The notes below the pieces were generated by a model. The model made no database searches. It was given only the letters and a program-made list of their open reading frames with translations, and was not told where the DNA came from. A DNA stretch of 64,000 bases from Methanobacteriota archaeon (GTDB lineage Archaea; Thermoplasmatota; Poseidoniia; Poseidoniales; Thalassarchaeaceae): positions 8,564 to 72,563 of the forward strand of contig WTHI01000135.1 of the NCBI GenBank assembly GCA_011523185.1, written 5' to 3'. Both the position numbers and the translations under genes were made by a program. Positions 3,450-42,670 of this stretch are shown one piece after another (positions within the stretch are counted from its first letter, which is position 1; each line of letters starts with the position of its first letter).

Positions 3450-4424
3450 TTATCGTCTATTTGTCCATGGCATAATTATGCTCTTTGCTACATGCCAAGC
3501 CACATCGGGGTTCTCTCTTAATCGGCGCATACTATACTCGTACCACCTACTGCCATAGGGGATGTATACACGTGTTAGATGACCTTCTTTTGCCAACTTT
3601 CGTCGTATATTGCCTCTGACTCCAAGAAGAAATTGAAACTCATATCCCGGTCCCTTTCCACTTCTTTCTGGACCTGCATTTCCTCTCGGATCATCTATTG
3701 TTGGACCCATACCCCTGTCTTCTAATGCCGCTATTGAATGGTCGATTACAGGTATGTCATGAGATGCAATAGCGGTGTATGCTCCTACATCTAATAAGTC
3801 TTCAATCGCCTTATTTGTTGCTAGGACAATATCATGATATTTCGTGTGAGCAATATCTTCAGGTTCAAGGTAAATTCCCTTACAAATTCTAACGTCTGAA
3901 TTACCGCCCAATATTGACGAAAGTGAAGTGATGTCCTCTCCAGTTCTAAACAACCTAGATTGGAGGACTGTGCCAATGTTGGTTAATCCACGATTATGCA
4001 TCTCAATTACAATGTCAATAGTGGACTGAGTCACCCTATTATCTTCCATATCCAATCTTACGAAGATATTGTTTTTTGATGCAATTCTAGTAATTTTCTC
4101 AATATTTTCTAGTGCTTGCTTTTCATCAATTAATAATCCAAAAGCGGTTGGTTTGAGAGAAATATTTGCATCCATATCTTCTGCAATGATTGCATCCAAC
4201 GCCCTATGATATTCGTTTACGAAAAAGTTCGCTTCTTCTAAGCTAGTTATCTCTTCGCCCAATACGTCTAGAGTAAAACAAGCACCCTGAGATTTCATTG
4301 AGCGCATTACCTGCAATGCGCTCTCTAAATCTGGGCCGGCAACATACCTCTTTGCTACCCACCCTACGACGAATCTTGGAGTGATTGGCATCATCAGCAT
4401 GACGAGACGGCCGAGTGCCCCCAT
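3450..4424 (-). CDS. Proline dehydrogenase (PRODH/PutA-like FAD enzyme)
   Basis: C-terminal signature RVYIPYGSRWYEYSMRRLRENP (the YxPYG...Y..RRL.EN motif of proline dehydrogenases). Length about 324 aa. Confidence 0.75.
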   Translation of the reverse strand: MGALGRLVMLMMPITPRFVVGWVAKRYVAGPDLESALQVMRSMKSQGACFTLDVLGEEITSLEEANFFVNEYHRALDAIIAEDMDANISLKPTAFGLLIDEKQALENIEKITRIASKNNIFVRLDMEDNRVTQSTIDIVIEMHNRGLTNIGTVLQSRLFRTGEDITSLSSILGGNSDVRICKGIYLEPEDIAHTKYHDIVLATNKAIEDLLDVGAYTAIASHDIPVIDHSIAALEDRGMGPTIDDPRGNAGPERSGKGPGYEFQFLLGVRGNIRRKLAKEGHLTRVYIPYGSRWYEYSMRRLRENPDVAWHVAKSIIMPWTNRR

Positions 4425-7967: not shown

Positions 7968-10900
7968 ATGAGCATGCAGAGTCCGAGTTTCGAACCCTCT
8001 AGGAAGCGGAAAGCGTTCCTGGCAGTAGTCTGTTTGTTACTACTTTCGGTATCTCCTATGCTCATGATTAATCCAAATCATGACCGAAAATTGGACGATT
8101 TAGAGAATGATTCCTCATTCACAGGAACTGTAGAGCCTTGGATAGATGGAGGGCAGCCTTGGCCGCAGCCTGGAAGAATATCTCAAAGAACATCCGAAGG
8201 GCCTCTCCATTCCCCAACCGGTGGAGCAGGGACTGATTCCCCGAGTAATGCAACCGAATTATCCTCTATTGTCGACCCAGTGATCAATTGGGAATATGGC
8301 ACCTATTCGATAGGCACGGACGCACTCGGAACCCCAGTCGGAGATTTTAGTCAACAAATTGTCACTGATGAGGCAGCCATGGAAAGATGTGGAGGAGATT
8401 CCCTATTCATTGTGCTAATCCAAACCGAAGTAGTCGGGGGTAACGATCACAGTGTTGTGAAAATTATCGAAGGCGAAGATGCTGATTTGGCTTGGGAGGT
8501 AGATTTGGGAGCCACCGAGATAATCAAGGCTTCACCAGTTATTGTAGACCTTGATGATGATGGAATGCAAGAAGTCATAATTGTCTACGACGCAGGTAGT
8601 GCTCTGTATGTTGATGCTTACTCTCCTAGACTTCATTGCTCAGTAACAGGTTGGTCGCCGGGGGGCTCAAAAAGCGGAGAGTTGCTTTGGAGTTATACTG
8701 ACGATAACCTGCAGATAGGAAGTACAAATGGACCCTATACCTCTTCTTGGTTAGGTGGGCATAGACCCACAACTCAACCCTTGCTCGCTGATCTTGATTT
8801 GGACGGAGACGCTGAATTGGTCCTTGCGGTTATCGACGATAACGAAAACCCCGTAGTCTTAGCACTGCCTCTTGGAGCAAATGGAGTGCCTACCCCAATA
8901 TGGCAATCTACGTTAGAGGATGGAAGCCATCCCTCCGATCCATCATTTGCTCAAGTTGATGATCAAACTGCCTATGTTTTACTCACAACCACTGAAGCTT
9001 CCAGTGGAGCGATGTGGGTTTGGAAATTAAATTCTGTATCGGGGGACCAACTATGGTCTCTTAGTCTGTCAAATTTAGATGGCGATTCTGATGTGCCTCA
9101 CATTAGACTCCCAGGGCCGGTAATTGCTAACTTAGATTCTGATTCCACACCTGAAATGATAATTTCAATACCAACCGATGCAGATGGTTCAAGCAGTGTC
9201 GATGGTGCAGAATTTAGAGGGCTAGAGATTGATGATGGATCTGAAATTTGGTCATTTGAGGCTGTAAATGGATACGCTGATGCCCCACCAATAGCAATAG
9301 ATACAGACAATGATAGTGTCATCGATAGAGTTTGCTGGGTAACTTGGTATCAGGAGACTACTGCAAGGCATGGGCATGCAGGCTGCCACGATGTATCAGG
9401 GAATAATCCTCAAATTGAATGGTACAATGACTTAGAGCAATCTAGCGGCTCCCCTAATGACGAAATTGCTGTTGCACAACCAGTCTGGATGGATATTGAT
9501 GGTAGTGGCGCGCCGGAATTGTTAGTGGCATATGGAAGAACTCTTTGGGCTTGGGATGGAGATACTGGGACTCAAGCCGCAATTAACGATAATTGGAACA
9601 ATGAGGTCGAAGTTGACCACAGAACTTGGTCATCTCCAGCCTTAGCAGATCTTGATGGAGATGCAACTTTGGATATAGTTCTGGGTGATACAGTAATCTC
9701 TACGGCTCTTGCCGACGTTAGGCCATTACTAGATGGGCGTGCAATAGAATTCAATCCAAGTGCACCTAATCCTAACGAAGAAGTCACGATTACAGCCTTC
9801 TTTGAAAATGCAGGAACCATTGAAATTGATGAGGCTGTAGACGCAGTCCTATACGCTGATGGAACAGAGATAGCACGCCATCGTGCTAGCAGCTTAGAAC
9901 CGACTGACCCCACTGGTTCAGCAGGGTTCGAATCCTTCTCTGTCGAATGGTCAGGTGGACTTGGAGAATATAATTTCGAATTGGTACTCGACCCATACCA
10001 AAATGTAACTCAATCTCGTTATGACAATGATGCACAATCGACCACTTTGACGATTGTGCCACCTTACAATGCTACATTTGAGATGCCTACGAATCCTGTT
10101 AGAGTTAATCCAGGAGAATCAACCATTGGTCAACCAACTGTTCGCTCAACTGGCCGTCTAGCCGGTGTTTGGAGTATGAACGTCGACGCTAGTAATTTGC
10201 CACAAGGGTGGACCTGGAGTGATGAAACACCAGGAGGAATTACGTCCATTCAAATTTCTGCAGATGGAACTTGGACTCCCTCTCTTAGGATTAACGCGCC
10301 AATAAATGCAGATGGTTCTGATGCAGGATATCTTTCGCTAACTCTTACCCTAGACGAAGATCAGAATGTTAGCGTTAGCGGAGTTTTACCAGTCGAGGCA
10401 AACCGTACACGTGGGTTGTCGATTAGAGGACCGGCGGGGACTACCGCTAGTAGCGGCTATGGTCTAATTGGAGATTCTGCTAAAGCATGGTTGGTCGTAG
10501 AAAATCTCGGGAACGCTGATGAAAATTCAATATCTATGTTCTGGGATAGTACATCTTGGGATTCTGCTGAAAATAGCTTAACCTTACACGATGAAATTGG
10601 AAATGAAATACCCGCATTAACTCTGTCTGCTGGAGAAGAAAAAATCATCTCTGCGAGACTAAATGTACCAACAGATGCATCGCTAGGAGATAGCGTTACT
10701 ACCCCGCTTACCATGTGTGTTGGGAGCGGAGAAGAGGAAACCTGTCAAACCGTGCAATTACAATTCATCGCTACAAGTGTTGTAACCGAAACCAATCACC
10801 AGAGGAGCATGCCTGAGAATACATTGCAATGGAATGTTATTGCAGACCTTCCAGCCTCTTCTGGAGTTTTAGATTGGAAAATTAGTGACGCTGGAATGGG

Positions 10901-13646
10901 AATAGAAGATTGGATTTGGTCGGGTTCCGGTTCATTATCGATAAGTGGAGATGATATTACGATGCAAGGAATTCCTGGTTCAAGAGTAAGTGGCATATTG
11001 TCTGTAGAACTTCCTGTCGATGCTCCCCCTGCTTTCCATTCATTCACAGATTCTAGTAGCCTTGGTTCGGATTATTCGCTTCGATTATCGGTTGAGGTCA
11101 TGCAAATTTACAGGACTTCTCTTACATTGGTATCACCTACAGAATCACCTCATTTAGTAGAAGTAGAGGAATCTATACCAGCAACGGTTCGGTTGTATAA
11201 TCCAGGAAATGGTGAAGATACCTACGTCATGTCTCACGCAGTAATATTGGATGACTATCTTACAGAAGACCCTGGTATATCAGTCACCTTCAGTAACTCA
11301 AGAGTGACCCTAAGCGCGGGAAGTTTGAGGACTCTTCCAGTTGAGATTATTTTACCAGATACAACCCCTGCAAGAACTCCGGTTAGTATTGAGTTATTCA
11401 TGACCTCTGAAGGAAATACAACAATATCAGATTCGGTCATCCTGACGCTTGAAGCAAGACAAGATCATCGTTGGGATGTAGTACTTTATTCAGCACTTGG
11501 CGATGTTGAGGACAATACATTTGCAATTAGCCCCGGTGATTCCTTTGCCGTCGAAATTTATGCAACGAATATTGGAAATCTTGACGACGACCTTTCTGTA
11601 TCCGCTTTAGGTCTGCTCAATCACCAGGGTGCCGATTCGGTAACCGATTGGAACATCTTTGGCGATAATGTATCATCAGTTCCGGTAAACAGTTCCACAA
11701 CACTATATTTGGTAGTGGAAGTACCTCTTGGTGCTTGGAATGGAACAACCTACCAAGTTAGTGCTTCAATAGTAGCATTTGAAGTCGAAATTCATACCTT
11801 TACATTCACAATAGAAGTTTCCCACGTAGCGGGTTGGAATGCCATAGCAACTAATGCGGATTTGGAGATTGACCCCTCTGGGTCTACGGTTTCACTAACT
11901 ATTGTCCAGGAAGGAAATTCGCCAACTCGCCCATACGTAAGCGTACAGGTGGACGGAGAAATTGGATGGGAGGTTGATACACCAGATGAATTACCAATCT
12001 TAGACCCAGGAAGTACAGCTACTCTAGATTTACAAATCACCCCACCCTCTACTGCTAGGCACGGAAGAACCGTTGAGTTATTGGTTAGATTAAGGGAAGG
12101 AGATGGAAGCAGTGAGGCTACCATTACATTGCCGCTTAGAGTTGCAGAGATTCATGAATTCAGCCTTCAAGGTAGTGGGAATTGGATTGTTTCAGACAAT
12201 GGAGGGTATCCCCATGCAGAATTACATAATCAGGGCAATGCGCCTACAACAATTTCACTTGAGGTACTTAGCCTACCTCAAGGTTGGCTAGTTTCAGGGC
12301 CTACTCAGGTGGTTATTGGAGTGGGAGAAATCACAGGAGTTCCATTAGAGGTAATTCCATCCTCAGATTGGGAGGGGGAATCTAGAACCATCAGAATCTT
12401 GGCACAAGATGAAGCAGGTAATCAAAGGGAAATTTCTCTCGATACTCAATACGAAGATCATTCATGGGCATCTTCACCTGTGATTGTATCAATGCAAGGA
12501 GACAGTGTTCTACTAGACATACACGGAACTTCACCTGATTCCTCGGTTGTTGATGATGTTCAGTCAAATCTACAATGGGATTTGCAAGGTGGTTGGGCGT
12601 GGCAAGCCAACACAGCAACTAGTGGCACTCAAGTTACTGTGGATTCGAACACAGTCTTACCATACACAGCATATGTCATCGAACCTGCGCTTAGGTATGC
12701 AACCTGCTCGATAACAGGATCTGTAGACTCAGTGAGGGCAGAATGTACAGTTGCCAATGGAACCCAACCATTCAGCTATACTGTAATCCTAATCGACGAT
12801 GAAGGAAAAATGTTAGACTCAACTGAAGGTAATTTGGATGCAAACACAACTTCTGGTCAAGTTAACCTAAGTGCTAATTCATGGGACCCGCAGCCGGGAA
12901 TGAGGAGTCTGGTTATTCGGTTATTAGATGAAAGAGGAATTGTTATTGCGTCTGATGAGACTGAATTTGAAATTCGTCGAAATGATTGGAATATTGGTTT
13001 GGTTGCTCTTGAACTTGATGGGCAAGGTGATACTCAAAAAATCAAGGTATTGACAAAGAGAGAGTATCACCACCTACTGACTGATGCCGATTGTAGCATT
13101 TTAGTAATCGCAGGCAGCCATACAGCCACCCATGAAATCGATTTCTCAGGAACTTATCCCCCAGAACCAAAGTTGGACCGCCCATCTTTGGATGATGCAC
13201 CAGATGGTACGGAAATCATTGTGACGGTGCAATGCAAATTCCCTTGGGATGTTGATTCCGATCCAACCGACAATGAAGCAAAATTGATTCTTTCTGGTGG
13301 TTCTGTAAATAATGATTCAGGCTTTGAATGGTTTACGGCAATTGGCTCGGCCATTCTTGTAATATCATTGGCACTTACTCTGACATGGATCCTTTACAAT
13401 CAACGCGAAAGGAAGAAATTATTGGATATGACTGAGTCCATTCTTAGCAAGAAAAAGCAGGAAACTAAGCTTCCAAAACCACCTGTGCCCTCTGAGAATT
13501 TGGTCGAGGAAAATATTCAAGAAAATACAATAATTGAAAATGAGGAGAATATCAACAATCAAATCGTAGAGGATACTCCAGAAGTCGTTGAACGACAATT
13601 AGACGACTTTGAGAGCAGGTTGAAGCGTTTGACCGGCGACGACTAA
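7968..13646 (+). CDS. Giant (1892 aa) secreted surface protein: signal peptide, FG-GAP-like beta-propeller repeats, CARDB-like domain(s), Ig-like arrays, C-terminal TM anchor and charged cytoplasmic tail
   Basis: N-terminal RKRKAFLAVVCLLLLSV signal. Repeated D(L/I)D(G/D)DG..E(L/V) motifs of FG-GAP type. APNPNEEVTITAFFENAGT is a CARDB-type motif. C-terminal TM FTAIGSAILVISLALTLTWILY is followed by NQRERKK and an about 100-aa Glu/Asn-rich tail. Confidence 0.75.
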   Translation: MSMQSPSFEPSRKRKAFLAVVCLLLLSVSPMLMINPNHDRKLDDLENDSSFTGTVEPWIDGGQPWPQPGRISQRTSEGPLHSPTGGAGTDSPSNATELSSIVDPVINWEYGTYSIGTDALGTPVGDFSQQIVTDEAAMERCGGDSLFIVLIQTEVVGGNDHSVVKIIEGEDADLAWEVDLGATEIIKASPVIVDLDDDGMQEVIIVYDAGSALYVDAYSPRLHCSVTGWSPGGSKSGELLWSYTDDNLQIGSTNGPYTSSWLGGHRPTTQPLLADLDLDGDAELVLAVIDDNENPVVLALPLGANGVPTPIWQSTLEDGSHPSDPSFAQVDDQTAYVLLTTTEASSGAMWVWKLNSVSGDQLWSLSLSNLDGDSDVPHIRLPGPVIANLDSDSTPEMIISIPTDADGSSSVDGAEFRGLEIDDGSEIWSFEAVNGYADAPPIAIDTDNDSVIDRVCWVTWYQETTARHGHAGCHDVSGNNPQIEWYNDLEQSSGSPNDEIAVAQPVWMDIDGSGAPELLVAYGRTLWAWDGDTGTQAAINDNWNNEVEVDHRTWSSPALADLDGDATLDIVLGDTVISTALADVRPLLDGRAIEFNPSAPNPNEEVTITAFFENAGTIEIDEAVDAVLYADGTEIARHRASSLEPTDPTGSAGFESFSVEWSGGLGEYNFELVLDPYQNVTQSRYDNDAQSTTLTIVPPYNATFEMPTNPVRVNPGESTIGQPTVRSTGRLAGVWSMNVDASNLPQGWTWSDETPGGITSIQISADGTWTPSLRINAPINADGSDAGYLSLTLTLDEDQNVSVSGVLPVEANRTRGLSIRGPAGTTASSGYGLIGDSAKAWLVVENLGNADENSISMFWDSTSWDSAENSLTLHDEIGNEIPALTLSAGEEKIISARLNVPTDASLGDSVTTPLTMCVGSGEEETCQTVQLQFIATSVVTETNHQRSMPENTLQWNVIADLPASSGVLDWKISDAGMGIEDWIWSGSGSLSISGDDITMQGIPGSRVSGILSVELPVDAPPAFHSFTDSSSLGSDYSLRLSVEVMQIYRTSLTLVSPTESPHLVEVEESIPATVRLYNPGNGEDTYVMSHAVILDDYLTEDPGISVTFSNSRVTLSAGSLRTLPVEIILPDTTPARTPVSIELFMTSEGNTTISDSVILTLEARQDHRWDVVLYSALGDVEDNTFAISPGDSFAVEIYATNIGNLDDDLSVSALGLLNHQGADSVTDWNIFGDNVSSVPVNSSTTLYLVVEVPLGAWNGTTYQVSASIVAFEVEIHTFTFTIEVSHVAGWNAIATNADLEIDPSGSTVSLTIVQEGNSPTRPYVSVQVDGEIGWEVDTPDELPILDPGSTATLDLQITPPSTARHGRTVELLVRLREGDGSSEATITLPLRVAEIHEFSLQGSGNWIVSDNGGYPHAELHNQGNAPTTISLEVLSLPQGWLVSGPTQVVIGVGEITGVPLEVIPSSDWEGESRTIRILAQDEAGNQREISLDTQYEDHSWASSPVIVSMQGDSVLLDIHGTSPDSSVVDDVQSNLQWDLQGGWAWQANTATSGTQVTVDSNTVLPYTAYVIEPALRYATCSITGSVDSVRAECTVANGTQPFSYTVILIDDEGKMLDSTEGNLDANTTSGQVNLSANSWDPQPGMRSLVIRLLDERGIVIASDETEFEIRRNDWNIGLVALELDGQGDTQKIKVLTKREYHHLLTDADCSILVIAGSHTATHEIDFSGTYPPEPKLDRPSLDDAPDGTEIIVTVQCKFPWDVDSDPTDNEAKLILSGGSVNNDSGFEWFTAIGSAILVISLALTLTWILYNQRERKKLLDMTESILSKKKQETKLPKPPVPSENLVEENIQENTIIENEENINNQIVEDTPEVVERQLDDFESRLKRLTGDD
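8500..9700 (+). repeat. Coding tandem repeats of FG-GAP/integrin-alpha type (DxDxDG) inside the 1892-aa protein
   Basis: Motifs DLDDDGMQEV, DLDLDGDAEL, NLDSDSTPEM, DIDGSGAPEL and DLDGDATLDI at roughly regular spacing. Confidence 0.55.
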
Positions 13647-14286: not shown

Positions 14287-15198
14287 CTAGAATTCTTGAC
14301 CAGTTAATCTTTCAAACATATCTGCATAAAGAGTTGAGGTTTGATCAATAATTGATTGTGGTAAAGCAGGAATTGGTGGCTCTTCAGTTCCTGCCTCTCT
14401 CGCCGCGTAAAGTTCAGAGTGATGACCGGTCTCTAGGTAATGACCTCTGACAAATTCTTTCGAAAGTTGCACAATCTCTCCCTTGTCATATGCTTCAGCA
14501 TCCCACCATCTGTCTTCATCTAAGGTTCCGAATGAATCCACCAAGACCGGAACTCTGCCTTCTCCTAAGGCGAATTCTTTCTTTCCATCGACATGGATTA
14601 ATCCACGCTTTGCGGCCTCGCTCTCGATTATTTCGTCAACCTTGACAACAATTTCGAGAATCGAATCAAATTCCTCGTCGGTAAGATTGGAGATTTCCAA
14701 TGCCTCCGCTCTATCGAGTAATCTATCGAATTTTTCGAATTTGGTCGATACCTCAAGGTATGGCTTTGGAAGTTTTACTCCTTCCTCTAGTATGGTTCCA
14801 GGTTCAAATCCAAATTCTTCAGCAGGGGCGTCGCCCCTTGCATATCTTCTCCAACCGCTACCTGCAAGATAATGTCGACAAATCACTTCCAATGGTACGA
14901 AGACATTTTCTTGGTCTCTCGATATTGCACCAGGCTCACGAATAACATCGAATCTTCGCGCTAACACTCTATCGGGTGCATTCATTTCGATAACATGGGT
15001 GTCACAAATTCCTGCTTCTTCAACAAGTTTGAACCAGTGACAAGAGGTTCTGTTTAATGACTCACCCTTTCGAGGAATTAGGCTAGGAATAATTTGGTCG
15101 AAAACGCTAATTTGGTCAGTATACCTAAATTCGATTATATCCGGATTATCTGTACTCCAAACTTGCTTCACCTTACCGTGGTAAATCATCTCGCCCAT
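14287..15198 (-). CDS. purC: Phosphoribosylaminoimidazole-succinocarboxamide (SAICAR) synthase
   Basis: N-terminus MGEMIYHGKVKQVWSTDNPD parallels E. coli PurC (ELYRGKAKTVYSTENPD). The motif ISVFDQ is present. The longest ORF extends to 15222, so the start is uncertain by 8-11 codons. Confidence 0.8.
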   Translation of the reverse strand: MGEMIYHGKVKQVWSTDNPDIIEFRYTDQISVFDQIIPSLIPRKGESLNRTSCHWFKLVEEAGICDTHVIEMNAPDRVLARRFDVIREPGAISRDQENVFVPLEVICRHYLAGSGWRRYARGDAPAEEFGFEPGTILEEGVKLPKPYLEVSTKFEKFDRLLDRAEALEISNLTDEEFDSILEIVVKVDEIIESEAAKRGLIHVDGKKEFALGEGRVPVLVDSFGTLDEDRWWDAEAYDKGEIVQLSKEFVRGHYLETGHHSELYAAREAGTEEPPIPALPQSIIDQTSTLYADMFERLTGQEF

Positions 15199-15327
15199 AC
15201 AACAAGGGCCATTGAAAGACAACCTTGAACATTGCTAATACTAATGCTCTTAATTTTTGATGATACTAAAATAAATCACCATGTAATACGGGTCGATTCT
15301 ATATTCTAACTTCTGTGTGCTCAATTT

Positions 15328-17376
15328 GTGAATAGAGCCTCTCCGGGTATCGAGAGAATTTTCTCTTGGTCGTCAATTGACTCTAAGTCTAGGGTTGTAA
15401 TTCTAGTCTCTATATTGTTAATTTGTTCAATCCCCCATTCGAGCGGACAAGAGACAATTACCGGATGGAACGAAGCCGAAAGTTGGACGGACCAGGACCT
15501 AAATGCGGCAGTTATCCATGGAGAACGAGTCTGGGTATTCGGAGATTCTGGAATCGTAAGATTTAGCGAAGACTCCGGTGCAACGTGGCAAAATCATACT
15601 AATTTAGGAGATGTTGATTTAATCTCAGCAGATTCGTATGAGAACTCAATGGCTGTATTGTCTTCTGATGGGGTAATCTACATGAAAGATGGTTTAGAAT
15701 CAGAATGGATTACTATAGACTCTAACCAAACGGGAATGAAGAGTATCGCATTAGCAGGAGAAGATTCCCTGATAATTGTAGGAAATGCAGGATTAATCTG
15801 GCAATACACTGATCAGACTTGGTGGAATAGGACAACAAGTTTCACTGAAAACCTGCACGATGTTGACTTCAACGGTGCTGAAGACGGATTGGTGGTTGGT
15901 AATGCAGGTACCATTCTCGCTACAGATGATGGAGGCACAACATGGGATTACAGAGAGGCTCCAGACCCTGAATCTTCAATCGTTTCTGTATCTTACTTCA
16001 ATCCTTACCGCATGTTCGCAGTAAGTGATTCAGGGCAGATCATATATTCAACATCCCCTGGTGGTTTTGAGTGGCAATTAAGAGAAATTGAATCCGCTGG
16101 ATACAATACAACACTCGCGACTAACCTTTCTTCCATTGATGTGGTCTCATCCTCAAGAATTCTATTCACTGGACCTGATGGATATCTAGGGCTAAGTCTT
16201 GACCAAGGCTTGAATGTTGAAAGAAATATACTACCTTCAGGAGTAAATACCTCGTTTAACGACCATGCAATGTTCGACTACGTAGTAGGCATAGTTGTCG
16301 GTGATTCGGGTGTCATCCTGTTTACTGATAGAGCAGGGGAAAACGAAGATATTGGTTTCCAAATACCCGATTACAATAATTTTGGAGAGTTCGTTGAATA
16401 TGCAGATGATATGTTATTAGCTGGATTTATTGCAACAGTAAAGATTGTGATATTCGGAATTTTATTTGGATTCGTAATCGGCTTGTTACTAGCGATGTTG
16501 AAAACAGCCCCTACATCTTTCAAAAATATACTAGAGCGATTTTCTACAACCCAAATCAAAGGACTTGGAGCAATTTGTTCGGTATTTGCATTATGGTTAA
16601 TCTACTCTGGTCTCAGAAGGTTTCCTGATTTACAATTGAATGGAATAGAGTACATTTTCACTCCTGTAGGAGACCCTAGAGGATTTGCAATGTTTGGCCT
16701 TGGAATTGCGATTTTTGTTATTTCAATCCAATTTATTTTGGCTGATGAAAAATTGACTGGACCTTTGTTCAGAGTTAGACCATTGAATTCCTTAGCAACC
16801 GTCTACACAGATTTCTTTCGAAATACGCCACTAATTGTACAATTTATGTTCATTCACTTCGGGCTCAGGTTAGGCATGAGGATTCAACAAGTTATGGAAG
16901 GTACATTTGGCGATCCAGGCATTGATGGAATTGACTACTTCTTCTATGGTGACCGCACCTTCCTTAGTGCTATTTTCACTCTCGGGCTTAATTCAGGAGC
17001 ATACCAATGTGAAACAATTCGAGGGGCGATAGCTGCGATCCCATCTGGTCAAATGGAAGCAGGAAGAAGTATCGGATTGACCTATATGGGGACAATGAAA
17101 TTAGTAATAATACCACAAGCAATTCGAATTTGTATCCCACCAATCGGTAACGAAATGGTGAACTTAGTATTGAATTCATCACTGGCGATGGTTATTGGTT
17201 ATTCTGAACTTTCAAGACAAGGAAGACTGATGATTGCGACCACTTTCCAAATATTTTCGGCGTGGGGATTGGTTATGATATCTTATTTTGTTGTAACTTG
17301 GACTCTTGCCTTACTTCTTCGAAGATTAGAGGAGAAAACAAAAATCCCTGGTTTAGGAATTTCAGGAGGTGCTTGA
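15328..17376 (+). CDS. Fusion protein: secreted BNR/Asp-box (Ycf48-like) beta-propeller domain + polar-amino-acid ABC transporter permease (HisM/GlnP family)
   Basis: N-terminal signal/anchor, then repeated S-x-D-x-G-x-T-W Asp-box motifs (SEDSGATWQ, DDGGTTWDY, SPGGFEWQ) for about 340 aa. Permease motifs follow: RNTPLIVQFMFIHFGL and the EAA-region GLNSGAYQCETIRGAIAAIPSGQMEAGRSIGL. Confidence 0.7.
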   Translation: MNRASPGIERIFSWSSIDSKSRVVILVSILLICSIPHSSGQETITGWNEAESWTDQDLNAAVIHGERVWVFGDSGIVRFSEDSGATWQNHTNLGDVDLISADSYENSMAVLSSDGVIYMKDGLESEWITIDSNQTGMKSIALAGEDSLIIVGNAGLIWQYTDQTWWNRTTSFTENLHDVDFNGAEDGLVVGNAGTILATDDGGTTWDYREAPDPESSIVSVSYFNPYRMFAVSDSGQIIYSTSPGGFEWQLREIESAGYNTTLATNLSSIDVVSSSRILFTGPDGYLGLSLDQGLNVERNILPSGVNTSFNDHAMFDYVVGIVVGDSGVILFTDRAGENEDIGFQIPDYNNFGEFVEYADDMLLAGFIATVKIVIFGILFGFVIGLLLAMLKTAPTSFKNILERFSTTQIKGLGAICSVFALWLIYSGLRRFPDLQLNGIEYIFTPVGDPRGFAMFGLGIAIFVISIQFILADEKLTGPLFRVRPLNSLATVYTDFFRNTPLIVQFMFIHFGLRLGMRIQQVMEGTFGDPGIDGIDYFFYGDRTFLSAIFTLGLNSGAYQCETIRGAIAAIPSGQMEAGRSIGLTYMGTMKLVIIPQAIRICIPPIGNEMVNLVLNSSLAMVIGYSELSRQGRLMIATTFQIFSAWGLVMISYFVVTWTLALLLRRLEEKTKIPGLGISGGA

Positions 17377-18207
17377 ATGGAAGATGTAGTTCTTTCAATT
17401 CGTGATTTACACAAGATCTACCCTGGAGGCGTTCATGCAGTCAGAGGCGTGGACTTCGATGTTCATGAAGGAGAGTCAGTAGCGATAATTGGATCTTCGG
17501 GTTCTGGAAAATCTACTGTTCTTCGATGTATCAATAGATTGATTGAGCCCACTGATGGAGTAATTGAACTACGAGGTGAACAAATTAACACACCTAGTGC
17601 AAATGTAAACGAGGTAAGAAGTAGAATAGGAATGGTATTCCAGTCTTTCGAATTATTTTCTCATTTGAAAGTATTAGACAATGTAACTCTAGGTTTACGG
17701 CATGTTCGTGGAATGAGTAAATCTGAGGCAGAAGAAGTGGCTTTAGATGTACTAGAGAGAGTCGATATGCTTGAGAGAATAGATGCCTACCCTGGTAATT
17801 TATCAGGCGGACAAAAACAACGTGTTGCGATTGCTAGGGCGTTAGCAATGAAGCCAGAAGTCATCCTATTCGATGAACCTACAAGTGCATTGGACCCAGA
17901 GTTGATCGGTTCTGTTTTGCAGACTATTCGTGGCTTAGCTGACGAGGGGATGACGATGGTTATTGTCACTCACGAAATTAATTTCGCTAGGGATGTTGCC
18001 GACAGGATTGTCTATTTGGATCAGGGCAAGGTGGCTGAAGAAGGCCCATCTTCAATAATCAACCAGCCAAAGACTGAGCGTCTTCAGAGATTCCTTTCCT
18101 CTATGCATGAAGATAAAATTCCAGAGGGCATCGAAAATGAACTGGTAAGTACCCAAACAGACCATGGCTATATTCCGGATGGAACTGGTAATCGACCTAG
18201 GTCTTGA
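17377..18207 (+). CDS. ABC transporter ATP-binding protein (polar amino acid family, GlnQ-like)
   Basis: Walker A GSSGSGKST, signature LSGGQKQRVAIARALA and Walker B ILFDEPTSALDPE. Start is immediately after the permease stop. Confidence 0.85.
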   Translation: MEDVVLSIRDLHKIYPGGVHAVRGVDFDVHEGESVAIIGSSGSGKSTVLRCINRLIEPTDGVIELRGEQINTPSANVNEVRSRIGMVFQSFELFSHLKVLDNVTLGLRHVRGMSKSEAEEVALDVLERVDMLERIDAYPGNLSGGQKQRVAIARALAMKPEVILFDEPTSALDPELIGSVLQTIRGLADEGMTMVIVTHEINFARDVADRIVYLDQGKVAEEGPSSIINQPKTERLQRFLSSMHEDKIPEGIENELVSTQTDHGYIPDGTGNRPRS

Positions 18208-18212
18208 AGAGT

Positions 18213-19664
<1,452 letters not shown>

Positions 19665-24520: not shown

Positions 24521-27500
24521 TCAGGCGATTGCTTCACTAAGATCGAATGAATCTCTCTCTGGTACGTCTTGTAATTCATCAATTTCTTGCAATACCATCG
24601 TTAGTGCATGCTGAGCGTTTTGTCTATGACCATCTCCCAACTTGTGAGATGAATATCTGGCCTCCTCGAAAATTCGGTCTAATGCCACAAGAGCTTCTTC
24701 ACTAATCGGTAGGGCTTTTCTAATTGCCATTTCAAATTCCCTTACAGTTTCAAAGTCTCGGCGAAGGAATCCATTTCTCATCAGTATATTGCATAGGCTC
24801 TCATAACAACCGAATATAGCCTCTCGGATTTCGTCTCCAGCGGCCAGTAACTCTGCTGTATAACTGAAAATTCCAGCCATTTCATCAATAGCTGCTAAAC
24901 GGCGTTTTCTGAGAGACAAACCTAATCCAACTAGAGTCCCTAAAATCAAGATTATTCCAATTATAGCGATAATCTGCCAGAATGTGAAGAGAGGCGCTGG
25001 ATCTTCGTAAGTCATCTCGATACCGGAATAATCATTGTTCAACCACAATCGATCATTTGGACTGATTAATTGAGAATCTGTTTGGAATATTAGGGATAAT
25101 TCACCCCATTTATTCTTGTCATAAAATGCTGGTTGGTTTTGTATCGTGAAATCATAATCCATTATGCCATTTGAGTCGGTGAGTTTGACATTTTGGAAAT
25201 GTATCACAGATTTATTGACCAATCTAGCGACAATGGAGATACCCTCAACGGGAAGGCCCGTATCATTAGCAACAACTGTTACAGTACCATTTATTCTCCT
25301 CTGGTTTTCCTTGATATGATGGCTATCCGGTGTAAATGTAAATGTCACAGGAACTCGGATGTTGACTATATGTTCAATATCTACACCGTTCAGGAATCTA
25401 TCAGCATCAGGGAGTGCAGATATTGTGAGCGATAACTCTCCAGGAGGCATCGTTGAGCGAGCTGGAGAGATTAGTTCGAAGTGTCCTGTGGATTCATCCC
25501 AAACTAGGATTGAAGGTTCCGCCAAACCGTTCCAAAGTAAGACCACTTCCATACCCTCAATGACGTTGCTTTCCCCACCAACTTCGACAATCCTTCCAAC
25601 CAGTTTAATTTCCTTTGATTCGTCTGAACGAATTATCAGATCGGTTTCCCAAAGAACTTCAATCTGGATATCTGCCTTAGCATAGACCGTCATGTTATAC
25701 TCAACTGGAAGGTAGAATGTTTGGCCCTCAAAGGTGAATCTAATATCATGCCCACCTCTTGCAATTAGGTAGCCAATTGAATAGTCGAATTCGAAAACTC
25801 CATCATTGCCAGTAGTAATTCGGTTGATTTCTACACCATCAAGTGAGATTATAATTTCTCGACCCGAAAGACCTGGCGCCCCTGCGGTATCTGAGTCAAA
25901 TAGTCGTCCTGTGAAGTTCCATTGTTCTCCTCTAGTAACTGACACATCATCCACCTGCAGATTAATCGCAGTGTGGTAAGCAATCGTTAGATTGGCATCT
26001 ACGCTTCCCGGTCTGTAGTAGCCTTGTGCAGGTGCGGTCACAGTTATTGTATGGAAGCCGATGTCCAAGAAGTCTGAAACCACCCAATTGAAAGACCAAT
26101 CTCCATTTTCACGGCTTGTCGTGATGCCCACTAAAGTTCCGTCAATGAAAATCTCAAGTGAATGATTTGCCAACCCTCCATCTGGAAGATTATCCCTAAC
26201 CGTTCCCGTTAATCTCATTTCATCCCCTACGGCATAAGCACTTGGAGGATCTATCGAAATGATGGTTGGTGCGTATACTGTGAATACTGTGGTTGAATTA
26301 GAAGATAGTATGAACTCTTCACCTTGGAAAATTATCTTCACCAAGCGAGGCCCTAGGGGCATATCTGGAGGGATTGGTAGATATACGCTGAATGTACCAT
26401 TTTCCTCTACTTGTAGGCCGGTTAAGAATTGGTCATTCATAGTGACTTCTAGATATCTATCTCCGAGTGTACGACCAGCTCCATCAGTAAGCATTCCTTC
26501 GATCAGGAGTAGTTGGTTCCTATCCACCTCGCCAGGAGGAGTCGTTAGAACGACTTGAGATGTTTGTGTGACATTGAATCCGACTGTAGTGGCAGAAGGC
26601 AAGTAATATTCAGGATTCAAGGAATCTCCTTGACCCATTGGGTCAACCCAAGTAAATCCTCCAAGGAATTTCGCTGTAACTGTATGAGCACCGTAATCCA
26701 TGTCTAATGGTAAATCATAGGTGACTCTCCATTGCCCCGTGGAAGCATTAGAAACTGTTGTGTAGGCTGAACCAACATCAATTCCATCAATCCAAATATG
26801 GATTACTCCACCTGAAATTAGACCGTTATCCGTCAATAATTGACCATGTTCATCTAGAAGTGTGCCAGTGAAGGTAATGTTTTCTCCAGCGATCATAGAT
26901 CCAGTTAATTCTGTGAATTCGATTACGGTTGGTGCCAGAACAATTACTCGAGACCAGGTGGAGTCTCCAATCAATCCTGTAGTTCCATTTATTCCAGAGA
27001 ATTCTGCTGAAATTAACATAGAGCCTTGGGTTCTTTGTGAGTCTACTGGAATAATCAACGTCGCTCGACCAGTTGAGTCAGTTGTTACAGATTGAATGAA
27101 TGAACCATCAACTAGGATGTCTATCTCTGCATTTTCGACCAATTGGCCAGCATTATCTATGATTGAAAGATTAACACTAACATCATCGCCTCTAACAACT
27201 CTTCTATCTGGATCTAGGTCAGCGGGATCTAGGATTGAGATTAGGGAGTAACCTCTACTGTCAAAAGTACCTGTATCACTACTAGAACCGTAATAATTGA
27301 CGGTTGGAGTGTAGCTTGCTGTGATATTATGAGTGCCTCTAGGGAAGGATAGACCGAGGGTAATTACTGCACTCCAAGTACCATTTGGATTAACCACACC
27401 ACCCGTGGCTTGGAATCCAGAATCCGTCCCATCGATTGAGAATGTTAGTGACGAAGGTAGGGCTGCCCCTGTTCTATCCATTATTCCAGTACCATTGCTG

Positions 27501-30500
27501 GAAAGTAAAGTTCCACTAACATTGAAAGATTCGCCGGCAACTGGGTTATCGGTTACTGTTGAAATTGTAAGATTAGTAGGTGAACGAACGAAAATTTGGT
27601 TCATTACAGTAGTTGTAGAGTGTAGAGTTGATGAGCCATTGAAATATAGTGTAATTCCAATTAATCCAAGTGGATGAGAATGTGGAACATCGAATGTGAA
27701 ATTTACTAATCCTTGACCATTAGTTACTCCTTCAGTCAACCATGTATCGTGGAACTTAGCCGCAACCTGCATATCTCCAACTGGAAGGTCATTATCCGAA
27801 AATTCAGTCAATCGAGCACCGAAGGTAATCGATGTGCCCCGATCAACAACCGTCTGGATTATTGGTGTCCTATCTGTGAATCGAGTGACACCCTTTACGA
27901 GAATTGAGGCATTACCCGTACCTGTAAGATAGAATGGAGAACTTCCTTCAATCACGCTCACGACTACAGTCTTCGTGCCACTTGAAACTCCATCTCCGAA
28001 TGGGTCTGTTGGAACTGATACAGAGAACGAACCATTGTTTGTTGTTGTATGACTGGAGACTAAAGTTTCACTTGAATCATTTAGGAAGAAGACTTCTACG
28101 GCCATTGGTCCACTAACACTTCTATTTCCATCGAATCCATCCAAAACTTGTCCAGAAAGTGTAAATGATTGGCCTGCAGTAACTTCTTGAGGTATTGAGG
28201 TAATTTCGACTTGGCTGTCCACCTGCACTGTTAAATTCGCAAATGTATCATTACCAATCCAGCGCCCTGGATCGGCGTCTGTTAGATTATCTGTTAAATC
28301 GTCAGCGGCATGTACTCTAAGGTCATAGAACCCTGGAGTAGTGTCTTCTAGAATAGTAGGGTTAAATCTCGCAACACCATCGACATCTGTTGTAGTTGAG
28401 TCAATAATTACCTGATTAGGGCCACCCCAATCAAAGTACAGGTCGACATCTACATCAGACAGCACAGTCTCATCTGCGATATCTGTAATTGTGGCATTTA
28501 CAATAAGAGTGGTGCCAGCAATGACGATGATTGATTGAGGTTCAGCATCCACTACGAACTCACTTTGAAGACCAGCCAGAACTCTTGTTTGGGTAATTGT
28601 AGTGTAAAACGGCCCTCGAACCTCAGCGGTTGTGGAGAAGTCTAACACAAATCGAAGGAAATAGGCGCCAGATCGAACATCACCCGGCATGGTGAATGAA
28701 TAATTGTAAAATCCTGTGGTTTCATTTATCCAACCATTGGTAAGCGGCACTATTACTGGAGGCGCAGGGCTCCCATCTGGTCCTGGAGGGAGTTCAGAAG
28801 GAATCTCCATTTGGACAACAATAGAAGAGTTGTTACCCGTGATTGGTGTTAGATGGAAAGTATCCTGCGCAAAGCCTGAGACCCAGGTAACGGCGCCCCT
28901 ATCAGTCCACTCTGAACCCAAGGTCACAGTAACATTCGCCCTTCCTTGTATCCTGATTGTATCAGAAACAGAAGTTGATCTGAGCCAAGTAGACCCAGTA
29001 TAGTTCAGCCCCCATTCATAGTCCCCTGCAAACATGTCCGCATTCGGGATCCAAACCACGTTGAAATTTCCCGAATCGGGATCAGTAATGTTGAACACCT
29101 CGGTGCCATTAAAATCGACGGCATATGTTCCCGGGAAATCAGCGACCGAAGTCCCGGTATGGTCTGACAACTGTACAGCAACCGAGGCTTCAAGACCTCG
29201 CTCAGTTGGATTTAGAGTATATTCAAATTCTACATATGACCTGATTCCAAAACTAGACGCAAATGACTCCTCATCAGAGGCGAATAAGTCATCTGCAGTG
29301 TAGATGAATTTCACATCCACAAGGCCCGCTGGTATGGGTACTGAGGACTCATTGAAGTCCCATTGGATTGCAAATTGCCCGGGAGACGTTGTCCAATTAC
29401 TGGAGTTCAATGCCCAGGTCGCGAGATCTGTGTAGGGACCGTTTGTTCCCGCCCTGCGCATCTGGAAAATAAGTGTGCCATTCAATGGGTCAGGAGAGGG
29501 TCCTCTACTAACTGCAGTACCATTTATGAAAATCAACTGATTGATATCAAGGATAGAGGAATTCGAGTCACTTCCTTCTAGGGATATGGATAGGTCTGGA
29601 GAAGGTGTGATGTTGAAGTTGAAATCTAGAGTTTTAGGTCTCAAATGATATTCTGGAATACTGGCATTATTCAAATCGCTCTGATGCCATCCCAGGAATG
29701 CCAAACTGGCATTGATCAATCCAAGAGGTTCGTCATCAGAAATAGGCACTCTAAATTCGAAGTATCCGCCAGCACCCAAATCTGAGATTAGATTGACGTC
29801 TCCGTCTTCTACAGTCGTATAGTTGAGTAATACCTGAAGGCTATCTAGAAATGCCGGATCGGTCTGAGGTAAATTTGCAAGTGCCATGTTACCGGTGACG
29901 CTTGTATTTACACCAACGCCTAGCATAGGTTGGTCTATTGGTATCGGATTAGTAATCGCCAAATTTACATCATCTGTTATGTTAATCACCCATGGGAATG
30001 TTACAGCTTGTACTCCAACATACCCTTTAGATTGAGTTAAGACAACTAAGGAACCATATCCTGGAATTATCATTTCGGAAGGTGAACCATTGAATGAAAA
30101 GAAACCCTCTGAATCGGTGACGGCAGTCCCAATCAGTCGGGTTGCCAATGCAGCGCTACCGGGAACATTTGCTGTCTCATTATCTGGTGTCAAGTAAAGT
30201 TCTAGTGTAATTCCCTCAACACTTGAAGAGTTACTGATAAATTGCAGTGTGCCGTTAAGAGTAATATTACCCGAAGAGTAGTCTCTCTCCAATGTATCAG
30301 GTGAATATGTCTCGTCCACTACCTCGACGACTGAGGCATCAGGACACGCTTCGAATGGAATCCAACCAAGGTCTAGTTCACCTTGATTTGCATTTGTCTG
30401 AAGGTGGACCTCAACCCACCATGAGAAATCATTACCATAAACTTCGAATCCATTGTCAACCCAAGTTCCGCCAGAAAAACCCGTAACTTTTCTGGTAGCT

Positions 30501-39057: not shown

Positions 39058-39079
39058 AGGAATAATCGGAGGCAAAATT

Positions 39080-42661: not shown

Positions 42662-42670
42662 GGGGGGAAA

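What the first reader, a model, noticed from the sequence alone, without database searches (positions are those of the whole stretch)
15328..18207. Secreted BNR/Ycf48-like beta-propeller fused in-frame to an amino-acid ABC permease, with ATPase but no substrate-binding protein gene
The first about 340 aa after the signal peptide carry repeated Asp-box motifs (S-x-D-x-G-x-T-W) typical of BNR/sialidase or Ycf48-type propellers. The C-terminal about 330 aa is a canonical HisM/GlnP-type permease (RNTPLIVQFMFIHFGL and an EAA loop). A GlnQ-like ATPase follows immediately.

Polar-amino-acid ABC importers normally require a separate periplasmic binding protein. None is encoded nearby, since purC is upstream and gdhA downstream. 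The propeller may replace the binding protein, tether the transporter to a polymer such as glycans or peptides, or make this an exporter or sensor. I am not aware of this fusion being described.
Basis: partly seen in the sequence, partly recalled or inferred. Interest (0 to 1): 0.6.

Follow-up and report, generated by a model that had tools for sequence, protein, structure and literature searches.

The report
Propeller-fused archaeal amino-acid ABC permease
A Marine Group II archaeon has a real, conserved gene that fuses an outward-facing seven-bladed propeller to an amino-acid ABC import channel, but relatives still pair this fusion with an ordinary binding protein, so the propeller is an unexplained accessory rather than a replacement for the binding protein.

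Summary
Window 15328-17376 (+) is one 682-aa ORF: N-terminal hydrophobic signal or anchor, a Ycf48-like 7-bladed beta-propeller (res ~41-345), and a GlnP/ArtQ-type permease. A GlnQ-like ATPase abuts it (17377-18207). No binding-protein gene lies anywhere in the 64 kb.

The fusion is not a frameshift. Hundreds of full-length homologs (48-97% identity) keep it, and both domains are under purifying selection.

The window lineage is Thalassarchaeaceae (MGIIb). The fusion family also occurs in other Poseidoniia and in Heimdall-group Asgard archaea. In 3 of 3 Asgard contexts, 4 of 4 other Poseidoniia contexts, and the orthologous purC/gdhA locus of Ca. Thalassarchaeum betae, an SBP_bac_3 gene sits near the fusion, adjacent in all but one. 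MGIIb genomes also carry an orthologous polar-amino-acid binding domain elsewhere, fused to two LivJ-like domains at the head of the liv operon.

So this is a binding-protein-dependent polar-amino-acid importer whose adjacent SBP gene was lost in the window lineage. The propeller is an accessory domain of unknown role. "Propeller replaces the SBP" is not supported. I found no paper describing the fusion; databases only auto-annotate it. Verdict: a new variant of a known kind, of moderate interest.

The parts
15300..15305 (+). TATA-like hexamer (TATATT) about 23 nt upstream of the GTG start. This is a putative archaeal promoter and implies a leaderless or near-leaderless mRNA.
   Evidence: Read from the sequence. 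This is inference only. The purC-fusion spacer is 105 bp.
15328..15447 (+). Residues 1-40: a conserved cytoplasmic N-tail (PGIERIFSWS..) plus a hydrophobic helix (res ~19-34). This is either a signal peptide or an uncleaved N-terminal membrane anchor, and either way it places the propeller outside the cell.
   Evidence: Hydropathy peak at res 17-41. Helix 19-34 in both AF2 models. The N-tail is conserved across MGII homologs.
15448..16362 (+). Residues 41-345: extracellular seven-bladed Ycf48-like beta-propeller with two strict Asp-boxes. It is strongly acidic (47 D+E against 11 K+R).
   Evidence: Pfam PSII_BNR. AF2 pLDDT 85-93. Foldseek top hits are Ycf48 structures 5ojr and 2xbg, E 1e-15, TMt 0.76. 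phmmer against PDB finds Ycf48 at 3e-7. Asp-boxes and charge. dN/dS 0.13.
16363..16512 (+). Residues 346-395: a short linker (~9 aa), then one long helix (res 352-393) whose outer part forms a stalk and whose inner part is TM1 of the permease. The motif GF(E/Q)IPDYNNFGEFVEYADDML is conserved within MGII.
   Evidence: AF2 model 2 secondary structure, alignment A1, hydropathy peak at 373-391.
16513..16767 (+). Residues 396-480: an MGII-specific insertion with two predicted TM helices (407-430, 450-470) between canonical TM1 and TM2. It is absent from the Asgard member L006 and from the SBP-adjacent Poseidoniia members.
   Evidence: Alignment A5, AF2 helices, hydropathy.
16768..17376 (+). Residues 481-682 plus the stop codon: core type I ABC-importer TMD (HEQRo/GlnP/ArtQ type) with RNTPLIVQ, the EAA loop (QMEAGRSIGL) and a family-invariant C-terminal KIPGLG tail.
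   Evidence: Pfam BPD_transp_1 and NCBIfam TIGR01726. Match to ArtQ 4yms_D at E 4e-27. 71-98% identity across MGII. Invariant columns.
17377..18207 (+). GlnQ/HisP-type ABC ATPase (276 aa). Its start codon abuts the permease stop, so the two genes are probably translationally coupled in an operon.
   Evidence: GlnQ model 4.2e-85, below the equivalog cutoff. The same gene pair is present in every related locus examined.
14287..15222 (-). purC (SAICAR synthetase), the divergent upstream neighbour. In Ca. Thalassarchaeum betae a 326-aa SBP_bac_3 gene lies between purC and the fusion. In the window only a 105-bp spacer remains there.
   Evidence: PF01259; orthologous locus; no SBP remnant in the window.
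18213..19643 (-). gdhA (glutamate dehydrogenase), convergent with the ATPase and ending 5 bp from it. The adjacency is conserved in all MGII loci examined. The true start is probably downstream of the listed TTG, because orthologs are 447-451 aa.

Best explanation
The two genes encode the membrane and ATPase parts of a binding-protein-dependent type I ABC importer for polar amino acids (PAAT family, ArtQ/GlnP type). It is most likely a homodimer of the fused permease plus two GlnQ-like ATPases.

Each permease carries three extras. The first is an N-terminal signal or anchor helix. The second is an extracellular Ycf48-like seven-bladed propeller held on a short linker and a stalk helix continuous with TM1. 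The third, in Marine Group II only, is a two-helix insertion after TM1.

Substrate capture is not done by the propeller. It is done by an SBP_bac_3-type binding domain supplied in trans. In the ancestral arrangement, still seen in Heimdall-group Asgard archaea, other Poseidoniia and Ca. Thalassarchaeum betae, a membrane-tethered SBP gene lies near the fusion gene, usually directly adjacent.

In Thalassarchaeaceae an orthologous, circularly permuted binding domain is also fused to two LivJ-like domains in a ~1000-1100-aa surface protein that heads the liv operon. In the window lineage the adjacent SBP gene has been lost, and this tri-domain protein is the likely supplier of the binding domain.

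The propeller is an accessory extracytoplasmic domain. My preferred guess, an inference only, is that it positions or docks the tethered binding domain next to the translocator, as the MalF P2 loop does for MalE, or anchors the transporter in the cell envelope. Imported Glu/Gln-type amino acids would feed the adjacent glutamate dehydrogenase.

Shown: gene structure, folds, family distribution, the neighbouring SBP genes, and the tri-domain protein. Inferred: which binding domain serves this transporter in the window's own genome, the substrate, and the role of the propeller.
For: The fusion is real and constrained. The TMD is a type I importer TMD. The propeller has a Ycf48 fold, not an SBP fold.

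SBP genes lie next to or near the fusion:
- All 3 Asgard contexts: L006, L007, L008. The SBP is adjacent in L006 and L008 and 6.5 kb upstream in L007.
- 4 independent Poseidoniia contexts: L010-13, L014-16, L017, L020.
- The orthologous purC|SBP|fusion|ATPase|gdhA|HD locus of Ca. Thalassarchaeum betae. That SBP is a strongly diverged copy, and the window has no remnant of it.

The window lineage is Thalassarchaeaceae, and all named MGII fusion clusters are MGIIb. After the Asgard proteins, the next-best hits of the Asgard SBP profile are Poseidoniia SBP_bac_3 proteins (E ~1e-80).

The SBD-LivJ-LivJ gene was found in 141 GTDB species genomes. The 80 loci kept carry Poseidoniales, Thalassarchaeaceae, Marine Group II or unspecific higher-rank archaeal names. 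59 of 60 complete ORFs are fused to LivJ-like domains, and no PAAT permease lies within 10 kb.

The SBD profile best matches the GlnPQ SBDs, GlnH and ArtJ. The literature reports aapJ- and livK-type SBPs as MGIIb-specific and very highly transcribed (PMC9723583, PMC6336850). Conserved propeller residues are the structural G..G, D.G..W and W positions, with no obvious ligand site.
Against: - No binding-protein gene is in the 64-kb window. I could not show that the window's own genome carries the tri-domain protein; the evidence is at family or species level only.
- A PBPb-type domain tethered to LivJ domains in a liv operon could in principle serve another, unseen translocator.
- The propeller's role has no direct evidence. 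The AF2 inter-domain geometry is unreliable (pTM 0.49).
- The Ca. T. betae adjacent SBP has lost the canonical amino-acid-binding motifs, so adjacency there does not prove a working partnership.
- Substrate specificity is not resolved, because all equivalog models fall below their cutoffs.
Confidence: 0.6

Rival explanations
1. Propeller as receptor. In lineages like the window's that lack an adjacent SBP, the fused propeller itself captures the substrate (amino acid or peptide) and hands it to the TMD. That would make this an ABC importer with a non-SBP receptor.
For: The propeller sits exactly where SBDs are fused in GlnPQ-type importers: signal, extracellular domain, then TM1. No SBP gene is in the window or in the MGII loci L001-L005 and L102-L106. 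Solved Ycf48 structures include complexes with a D1 peptide (PDB titles). The propeller is under purifying selection.
Against: The same propeller fusion coexists with a neighbouring canonical SBP in Asgard archaea, other Poseidoniia and Ca. T. betae, so the propeller did not arise as an SBP substitute. MGIIb keeps an orthologous SBD elsewhere. Conserved propeller positions are structural only. I know of no type I importer that uses a non-SBP receptor (own knowledge).
Confidence: 0.1
2. Envelope or polymer tether. The propeller binds S-layer or cell-surface glycans, or extracellular protein or peptide polymers. This would fix the importer under the envelope or next to sites of extracellular proteolysis. 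An SBP still delivers the substrate.
For: The closest non-fused relatives of the propeller are repeated modules of giant secreted or surface proteins, many with T9SS sorting or adhesin-like domains. The window is rich in giant surface proteins and peptidases. BNR/Asp-box propellers often bind glycans (own knowledge).
Against: No ligand-site conservation was detected. No co-localised envelope or peptidase gene is conserved across the Asgard, Poseidoniia and MGII loci. This idea is not exclusive of the best explanation; it differs only in the propeller's partner.
Confidence: 0.2
3. Assembly or annotation artefact. Two separate genes (a secreted propeller and a permease) were joined by a frameshift or sequencing error.
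For: None beyond the rarity of the architecture.
Against: The same uninterrupted ORF occurs in more than 120 independent assemblies at 48-97% identity, and in Asgard archaea at 33-41%. The junction motif is conserved. dN/dS is low in both halves.
Confidence: 0.01
4. Exporter or sensor. The complex exports a compound, or signals, rather than importing amino acids.
For: The absence of a local SBP, and an unusual extracellular domain.
Against: The TMD has the BPD_transp_1 fold with the EAA coupling loop typical of type I importers and matches ArtQ at 4e-27. There is no signalling domain. Cognate SBPs lie near the fusion in relatives.
Confidence: 0.03

Closest known systems
Art(QN)2-ArtJ of Thermoanaerobacter tengcongensis (PDB 4YMS-4YMX) and E. 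coli GlnHPQ: PAAT-family type I ABC importers
   Same: A homodimer-type single permease gene plus a GlnQ/ArtN-like ATPase. The TMD matches ArtQ at E 4e-27. The partner SBD profile matches GlnH and ArtJ. The EAA loop and HEQRo signature are present.
   Different: This permease carries an N-terminal extracellular propeller and a two-helix insertion. No SBP gene sits in the operon in this lineage. The partner SBDs are circular permutants and are membrane-tethered. Scores are below every equivalog cutoff, so substrate cannot be transferred.
Lactococcus lactis GlnPQ (and OpuA): ABC importers with substrate-binding domains fused to the TMD
   Same: The same topology: signal sequence, extracellular domain(s), then TM1 of a PAAT permease. 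Bacterial SBP_bac_3+BPD_transp_1 fusions appear among the TMD hits outside the family (P0317, P0325, P0330). The SBD profile hits GlnPQ SBD1-2 (6h30) at 5e-51.
   Different: The fused domain here is a seven-bladed Ycf48-like propeller, not a bilobed SBP fold. The binding domain is encoded separately.
MalF periplasmic P2 loop of the maltose importer MalFGK2-E
   Same: A large extracytoplasmic accessory domain that is part of a type I importer TMD, alongside a separate SBP. It is my model for a docking role (own knowledge; review PMC6906923 was listed but I did not read it).
   Different: P2 is an Ig-like insertion between TM helices, not an N-terminal propeller. There is no sequence or fold relationship. 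The docking role here is a hypothesis.
Ycf48/HCF136, the photosystem II assembly factor
   Same: The same seven-bladed propeller fold (TM 0.76, rmsd ~3.7 A, ~300 columns) and a Pfam PSII_BNR match above the cutoff.
   Different: Identity is 15-16%. The NCBIfam Ycf48 equivalog scores 44 bits against a cutoff of 326. The host is a non-photosynthetic archaeon. The propeller is fused to a transporter. No functional link to PSII is possible.
Pseudomonas putida PedA1A2BC gene set (SBP PedA1 plus a separate periplasmic beta-propeller protein PedA2 plus ABC permease and ATPase)
   Same: An ABC-transporter gene set that combines a substrate-binding protein with an extracytoplasmic beta-propeller of unknown role (gene table of PMC12997753).
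   Different: There the propeller is a separate protein. I did not compare the propeller or the permease and ATPase with those here, so no homology is claimed. The source table calls PedB an efflux-transporter ATPase, so even the direction of transport may differ.

Membership tests
PAAT-family type I ABC importer permease (HEQRo / GlnP-HisM-ArtQ type) | BPD_transp_1 domain with the EAA coupling loop and the HEQRo N-terminal 3-TM signature | tested here: met
   PF00528 at 3e-14. TIGR01726 at 65.2 bits against a cutoff of 42.2. ArtQ 4yms_D at 4e-27.
PAAT-family type I ABC importer permease (HEQRo / GlnP-HisM-ArtQ type) | Adjacent cognate GlnQ/HisP-type ATPase | tested here: met
   17377-18207. 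ABC_tran at 2.7e-37. The GlnQ model scores 4.2e-85 (285 bits, below the equivalog cutoff of 379).
PAAT-family type I ABC importer permease (HEQRo / GlnP-HisM-ArtQ type) | Cognate SBP_bac_3 (PBPb) substrate-binding protein | tested here: inconclusive
   None in the 64-kb window. Present near the fusion in Asgard archaea, other Poseidoniia and Ca. T. betae, and as an unlinked SBD-LivJ-LivJ protein across Thalassarchaeaceae. Not shown for the window's own genome.
PAAT-family type I ABC importer permease (HEQRo / GlnP-HisM-ArtQ type) | Equivalog-level match that would assign a substrate (GlnP, TcyL, HisM, ArtQ, EhuC ...) | tested here: not met
   The best score is 136 bits against cutoffs of ~300. 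Specificity is unassigned.
Ycf48/HCF136 PSII assembly factor | Seven-bladed propeller fold with a Pfam PSII_BNR match | tested here: met
Ycf48/HCF136 PSII assembly factor | Equivalog-level sequence match, and occurrence in an oxygenic phototroph with PSII | tested here: not met
   NF010237 scores 44.3 bits against a cutoff of 326. The host is a Thalassarchaeaceae archaeon. The protein has the fold but is not a member of the functional family.
SBD-fused ABC importers (GlnPQ / OpuA type) | The extracellular domain fused N-terminally to the TMD is a substrate-binding-protein fold | tested here: not met
   Every listed Foldseek match is a beta-propeller/WD40-type protein, with Ycf48 best; no SBP fold appears. 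There is no PF00497 hit on the fusion.
BNR/sialidase-type glycoside hydrolases | Repeated Asp-boxes on a six-bladed propeller with catalytic Arg triad, Tyr and Glu | tested here: not met
   Two strict Asp-boxes. The best fold matches are the seven-bladed Ycf48. The only hydrolase model hit is far below its cutoff: F510_1955 at 30.5 bits against 175. Catalytic residues were not examined.

The most novel reading that the evidence does not exclude
In Marine Group IIb lineages that lost the adjacent binding-protein gene, such as this one, the Ycf48-like propeller is itself part of the receptor. Either it captures peptides or amino acids directly, or it is the obligatory dock that lets one surface-tethered tri-domain binding protein (polar-amino-acid SBD plus two LivJ domains) feed two different ABC translocators. 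Either case would be a new mode of substrate delivery for type I ABC importers, in one of the ocean's most abundant archaeal groups.
Probability: 0.12. Interest if true: 0.85.

Novelty: new variant of a known kind. Interest (0 to 1): 0.5.

Why it matters
Marine Group II archaea are among the most abundant heterotrophs in the surface ocean, and amino-acid uptake is thought to be central to their role in turning over dissolved organic nitrogen. Their amino-acid binding-protein genes are among their most highly transcribed genes (PMC9723583).

This work shows three things:
- The only PAAT-type translocator seen here carries an unexplained, conserved extracellular propeller. It is shared with Heimdall-group Asgard archaea.
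- Its binding domain has been circularly permuted several times.
- In MGIIb that binding domain has been moved onto the branched-chain binding protein.

For ABC-transporter biology, this is a natural system for asking how an accessory extracytoplasmic domain and a shared, tethered multi-domain receptor work with a type I importer. For genome annotation, it warns that 'no SBP in the operon' is not evidence that a system works without an SBP.

Tried and rejected
- **Frameshift or two-gene artefact.** Rejected.
- **SBP hidden in the window.** A local HMM built from Asgard SBPs and bacterial SBD fusions, run against all six-frame ORFs, found nothing with E below 1. Pfam on the other ORFs of 150 aa or more that do not lie inside a larger ORF found no binding protein; the 1892-aa and 2981-aa giant ORFs were covered only by the SBP HMM and by Pfam hits on record for their orthologs. 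tblastn with the Ca. T. betae adjacent SBP found no remnant between purC and the fusion.
- **Overlap between the window and the 80 SBD-LivJ loci.** blastn found none, and tblastn matched only an unrelated ABC ATPase and one unrelated ORF. Physical linkage in this genome could not be shown.
- **Same-contig co-occurrence by contig length.** No matches.
- **Ligand-site search by conservation on the propeller.** Only structural positions are conserved.
- **Structure prediction.** The first AF2 run, with 10 close homologs, gave an unusable TMD (pLDDT below 50). A 34-sequence alignment fixed this (mean pLDDT 78), but the inter-domain geometry is still unreliable (pTM 0.49).
- **Literature.** Searches for Ycf48 or PF14870 with ABC transporters or archaea found nothing relevant.
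Full report
**1. The observation**

The window holds a single 682-aa ORF at 15328-17376 (+). A 276-aa ORF starts on the very next base, at 17377.

- Pfam places a PSII_BNR/Ycf48 match in the N-terminal half and BPD_transp_1 in the C-terminal half. The second ORF is an ABC ATPase.
- NCBIfam puts the permease in the HEQRo (His/Glu/Gln/Arg/opine) group. The nearest models are TcyL, GlnP, EhuC and HisM, all far below their equivalog cutoffs. The ATPase is nearest to GlnQ.
- purC lies divergently upstream and gdhA convergently downstream.
- Only two strict Asp-boxes are present, plus one degenerate one. There is an N-terminal hydrophobic helix, and the propeller region is very acidic.
- A TATA-like hexamer ~23 nt upstream of the GTG suggests a leaderless transcript (inference).

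**2. The fusion is real**

A search of 5.8 billion proteins returned more than 120 full-length homologs at 48-97% identity, all with the same two domains. An exhaustive HMMER search of cluster representatives found further fused clusters of 579-872 aa at 34-53% identity.

In a ten-sequence alignment the junction and TM1 are conserved. Against a 91%-identical ortholog, dN/dS is 0.13 for the propeller and 0.045 for the TMD. A frameshift artefact is excluded.

**3. Structure**

AlphaFold2 predicts residues 41-342 with pLDDT of about 85-93. Foldseek against the PDB puts Ycf48 structures first (5ojr, 2xbg; E ~1e-15, TM 0.76, ~300 aligned columns, 15-16% identity). Sequence search of the PDB agrees, with Ycf48 at ~3e-7, and finds ArtQ of the Art(QN)2 amino-acid importer (4YMS) for the TMD at 4e-27.

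The domain is therefore a seven-bladed Ycf48-like propeller, not a substrate-binding fold. With a 34-sequence alignment the TMD reached pLDDT 70-85. A ~9-residue linker leads into one long helix (352-393) that continues into TM1. Two extra helices (407-430, 450-470) follow.

That ~80-residue insertion is specific to Marine Group II. Inter-domain geometry is not trustworthy (pTM 0.49).

**4. Who has it**

Source names place the window's own 90% cluster in Candidatus Thalassarchaeaceae, i.e. Marine Group IIb. Every other named MGII cluster of the fusion is Thalassarchaeaceae, Thalassarchaeum or unspecific 'Poseidoniales'. None is Poseidoniaceae.

More distant members come from other Poseidoniia and from Heimdall-group Asgard archaea: Heimdallarchaeota OLS19808.1, Kariarchaeaceae and Hodarchaeales. 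Databases label them 'ABC transporter permease subunit', 'YCF48-related protein', or 'ABC-type amino acid transport system permease subunit/photosystem II stability/assembly factor'. One member has been public as ABZ07942.1. Full-text searches found no paper that discusses the architecture.

**5. The binding protein**

The window has no binding-protein gene. The syntenic MGII loci for the 682-, 704- and 706-aa forms have none either. The family as a whole is different.

- **Asgard archaea.** In all three contexts an SBP_bac_3-type gene lies near the fusion. It follows the ATPase in L006, lies 6.5 kb upstream in L007, and is divergent and adjacent in L008. The L008 gene has no precomputed Pfam hit but scores 6e-58 against my SBP HMM. 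The three are orthologs with a signal peptide and a C-terminal membrane anchor.
- **Profile search.** A profile of these three recovered ~320-aa Poseidoniia proteins as the next-best hits after the Asgard ones, at about 1e-80.
- **Other Poseidoniia.** In four independent contexts those ~320-aa genes sit divergently next to 606-625-aa propeller-permease genes plus an ATPase.
- **Ca. Thalassarchaeum betae.** The orthologous locus reads Aminotran_4 | purC | SBP_bac_3 (326 aa) | fusion (774 aa) | ATPase | gdhA | HD. This is the window's gene order (purC | fusion | ATPase | gdhA | HD) with an SBP gene between purC and the fusion.
- **State of that SBP.** It keeps the signal peptide and C-terminal anchor, but it is only ~26% identical to its relatives and has lost the SAMTKT, VQSGTTSD and YPPFE motifs. 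The window's 105-bp spacer holds no remnant of it.

**6. A second, unlinked binding domain in MGIIb**

Some hits were partial proteins carrying SBP_bac_3 plus Peripla_BP_6. A scan of one genome per GTDB species, using a re-permuted alignment of the binding domains, confirmed 141 loci. The 80 loci kept carry Poseidoniales, Thalassarchaeaceae, Marine Group II or unspecific higher-rank archaeal names.

In L022 the gene encodes a 1032-aa protein made of the polar-amino-acid domain followed by two LivJ-like domains. Downstream lie a 1241-aa fused LivH-LivM permease, LivG and LivF. In 59 of 60 complete ORFs the domain is fused this way. None of the 80 loci has a propeller or a PAAT permease within 10 kb.

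The domain profile best matches the GlnPQ SBDs, GlnH and ArtJ. It matches in two stretches, which confirms circular permutation. The motif order differs among the Asgard, adjacent-type and MGIIb forms.

Ca. T. betae has both the adjacent SBP and the tri-domain gene (L042, L046, L059). [quoted passage not shown] This is the same phyletic pattern as the fusion.

**7. Interpretation**

The ancestral unit is SBP, propeller-permease and ATPase. The propeller therefore did not evolve as a substitute for the SBP.

MGIIb additionally placed an orthologous binding domain on the Liv binding protein. After that the adjacent SBP diverged (Ca. T. betae) or was lost (the window lineage, and the 704- and 706-aa lineages). 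The permease and ATPase stayed under strong purifying selection.

The simplest reading is that the transporter still depends on a binding domain and now receives it in trans from the tri-domain protein.

The substrate is probably a polar amino acid of the Gln/Glu/Arg type. This rests on the SBD similarity and on the conserved gdhA adjacency, which is weak evidence.

The propeller's role is open. Its conserved residues are structural. Its closest non-fused relatives are modules of giant secreted proteins of unknown function. I favour docking or positioning of the tethered binding domain, by analogy with MalF-P2. An envelope or polymer tether is the main alternative. PedA1A2BC is another gene set that pairs an SBP with a beta-propeller of unknown role.

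**8. Verdict**

The interpretation 'no SBP, so the propeller replaces it' is not supported.

The architecture is a new, undescribed variant of a PAAT-family importer, conserved across two archaeal phyla. Interest is moderate at 0.5: the fusion is real and unexplained, and the associated binding-domain rearrangements are unusual, but the system most likely works as a conventional SBP-dependent importer.

Noticed in passing
L006 10630-11625 (-), L007 1442-2407 (+), L008 6757-7845 (-), L010 3019-3978 (+), L022 9848-10770 (+): The SBP_bac_3 domains that accompany the propeller-permease family occur in three different circular permutations. Motif order is L-C-A-B in Asgard archaea, B-L-C-A in the adjacent Poseidoniia type, and A-B-L-C in MGIIb. 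All share a 'VVLTDD..TA.AYP' linker that joins the canonical C-terminus to the canonical N-terminus.
   Followed up: partly
L022 9848-18296 (and 59 of 60 complete ORFs in L022-L101): Thalassarchaeaceae encode a ~1000-1100-aa tri-domain binding protein (polar-amino-acid SBD plus two LivJ-like domains). It heads a liv operon whose LivH and LivM are fused into one 1241-aa permease. This is probably the gene reported in metatranscriptomes as highly expressed 'aapJ' and/or 'livK'.
   Followed up: partly
L107 1934-2914 (-) (Ca. Thalassarchaeum betae; also L108-L116): The SBP gene next to the fusion in Ca. T. betae is intact, with a signal peptide and C-terminal anchor. It has lost all canonical amino-acid-binding motifs and is ~26% identical to its relatives. 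It is either a specificity change or relaxed selection after the tri-domain protein appeared.
   Followed up: partly
window 16513-16767 (res 396-480): An MGII-specific insertion of two predicted TM helices lies between TM1 and TM2 of the permease. Other MGIIb genera have longer variants (774-874 aa proteins). One metagenomic homolog (P0098, 636 aa) lacks half of it, which would invert the topology if real.
   Followed up: partly
window 17341-17358 (res 672-677): An invariant C-terminal cytoplasmic motif K-I-P-G-L-G is present in every family member, from MGII to Asgard. I do not recall this tail in GlnP, HisM or ArtQ (own knowledge; not checked against them here).
   Followed up: no
window 7968-13646 (+), 24521-33466 (-), 33542-36481 (-): Three giant ORFs of 1892, 2981 and 979 aa. 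Orthologs show faint or weak FG-GAP, CARDB and NPCBM_assoc hits and a transglutaminase-core hit, so these are likely large surface proteins. The 1892-aa gene plus a 207-aa gene with no family hit are syntenic with the transporter locus in the closer MGII relatives (L004, L102, L103).
   Followed up: no
window 37969-44814 (+), 3450-4424 (-), 724-2025 (+), 46709-48442 (+): An amino-acid-catabolism neighbourhood. It holds lipoyl synthase, 2-oxoacid dehydrogenase E1alpha, E1beta, E2 and E3, and lipoate ligase in a row, plus proline dehydrogenase and S8 and M28 peptidases. The M28 peptidase has an N-terminal SAP domain.
   Followed up: no
window 18124-18207 (ATPase res ~250-276) and 19557-19643 (gdhA 5' end): The ATPase is 276 aa here and in L001-L003, but 248-256 aa in other MGII orthologs, so it has a variable, low-complexity C-terminal tail. 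The listed gdhA ORF (476 aa, TTG start) is ~29 codons longer than its orthologs (447-451 aa), so its true start is probably internal.
   Followed up: no
P0542 (TARA annotation): An automated KEGG annotation assigns both K02030 (SBP) and K02029 (permease) to the fused protein, although its N-terminal domain is a propeller. Module-completeness surveys could therefore wrongly count an SBP here.
   Followed up: no
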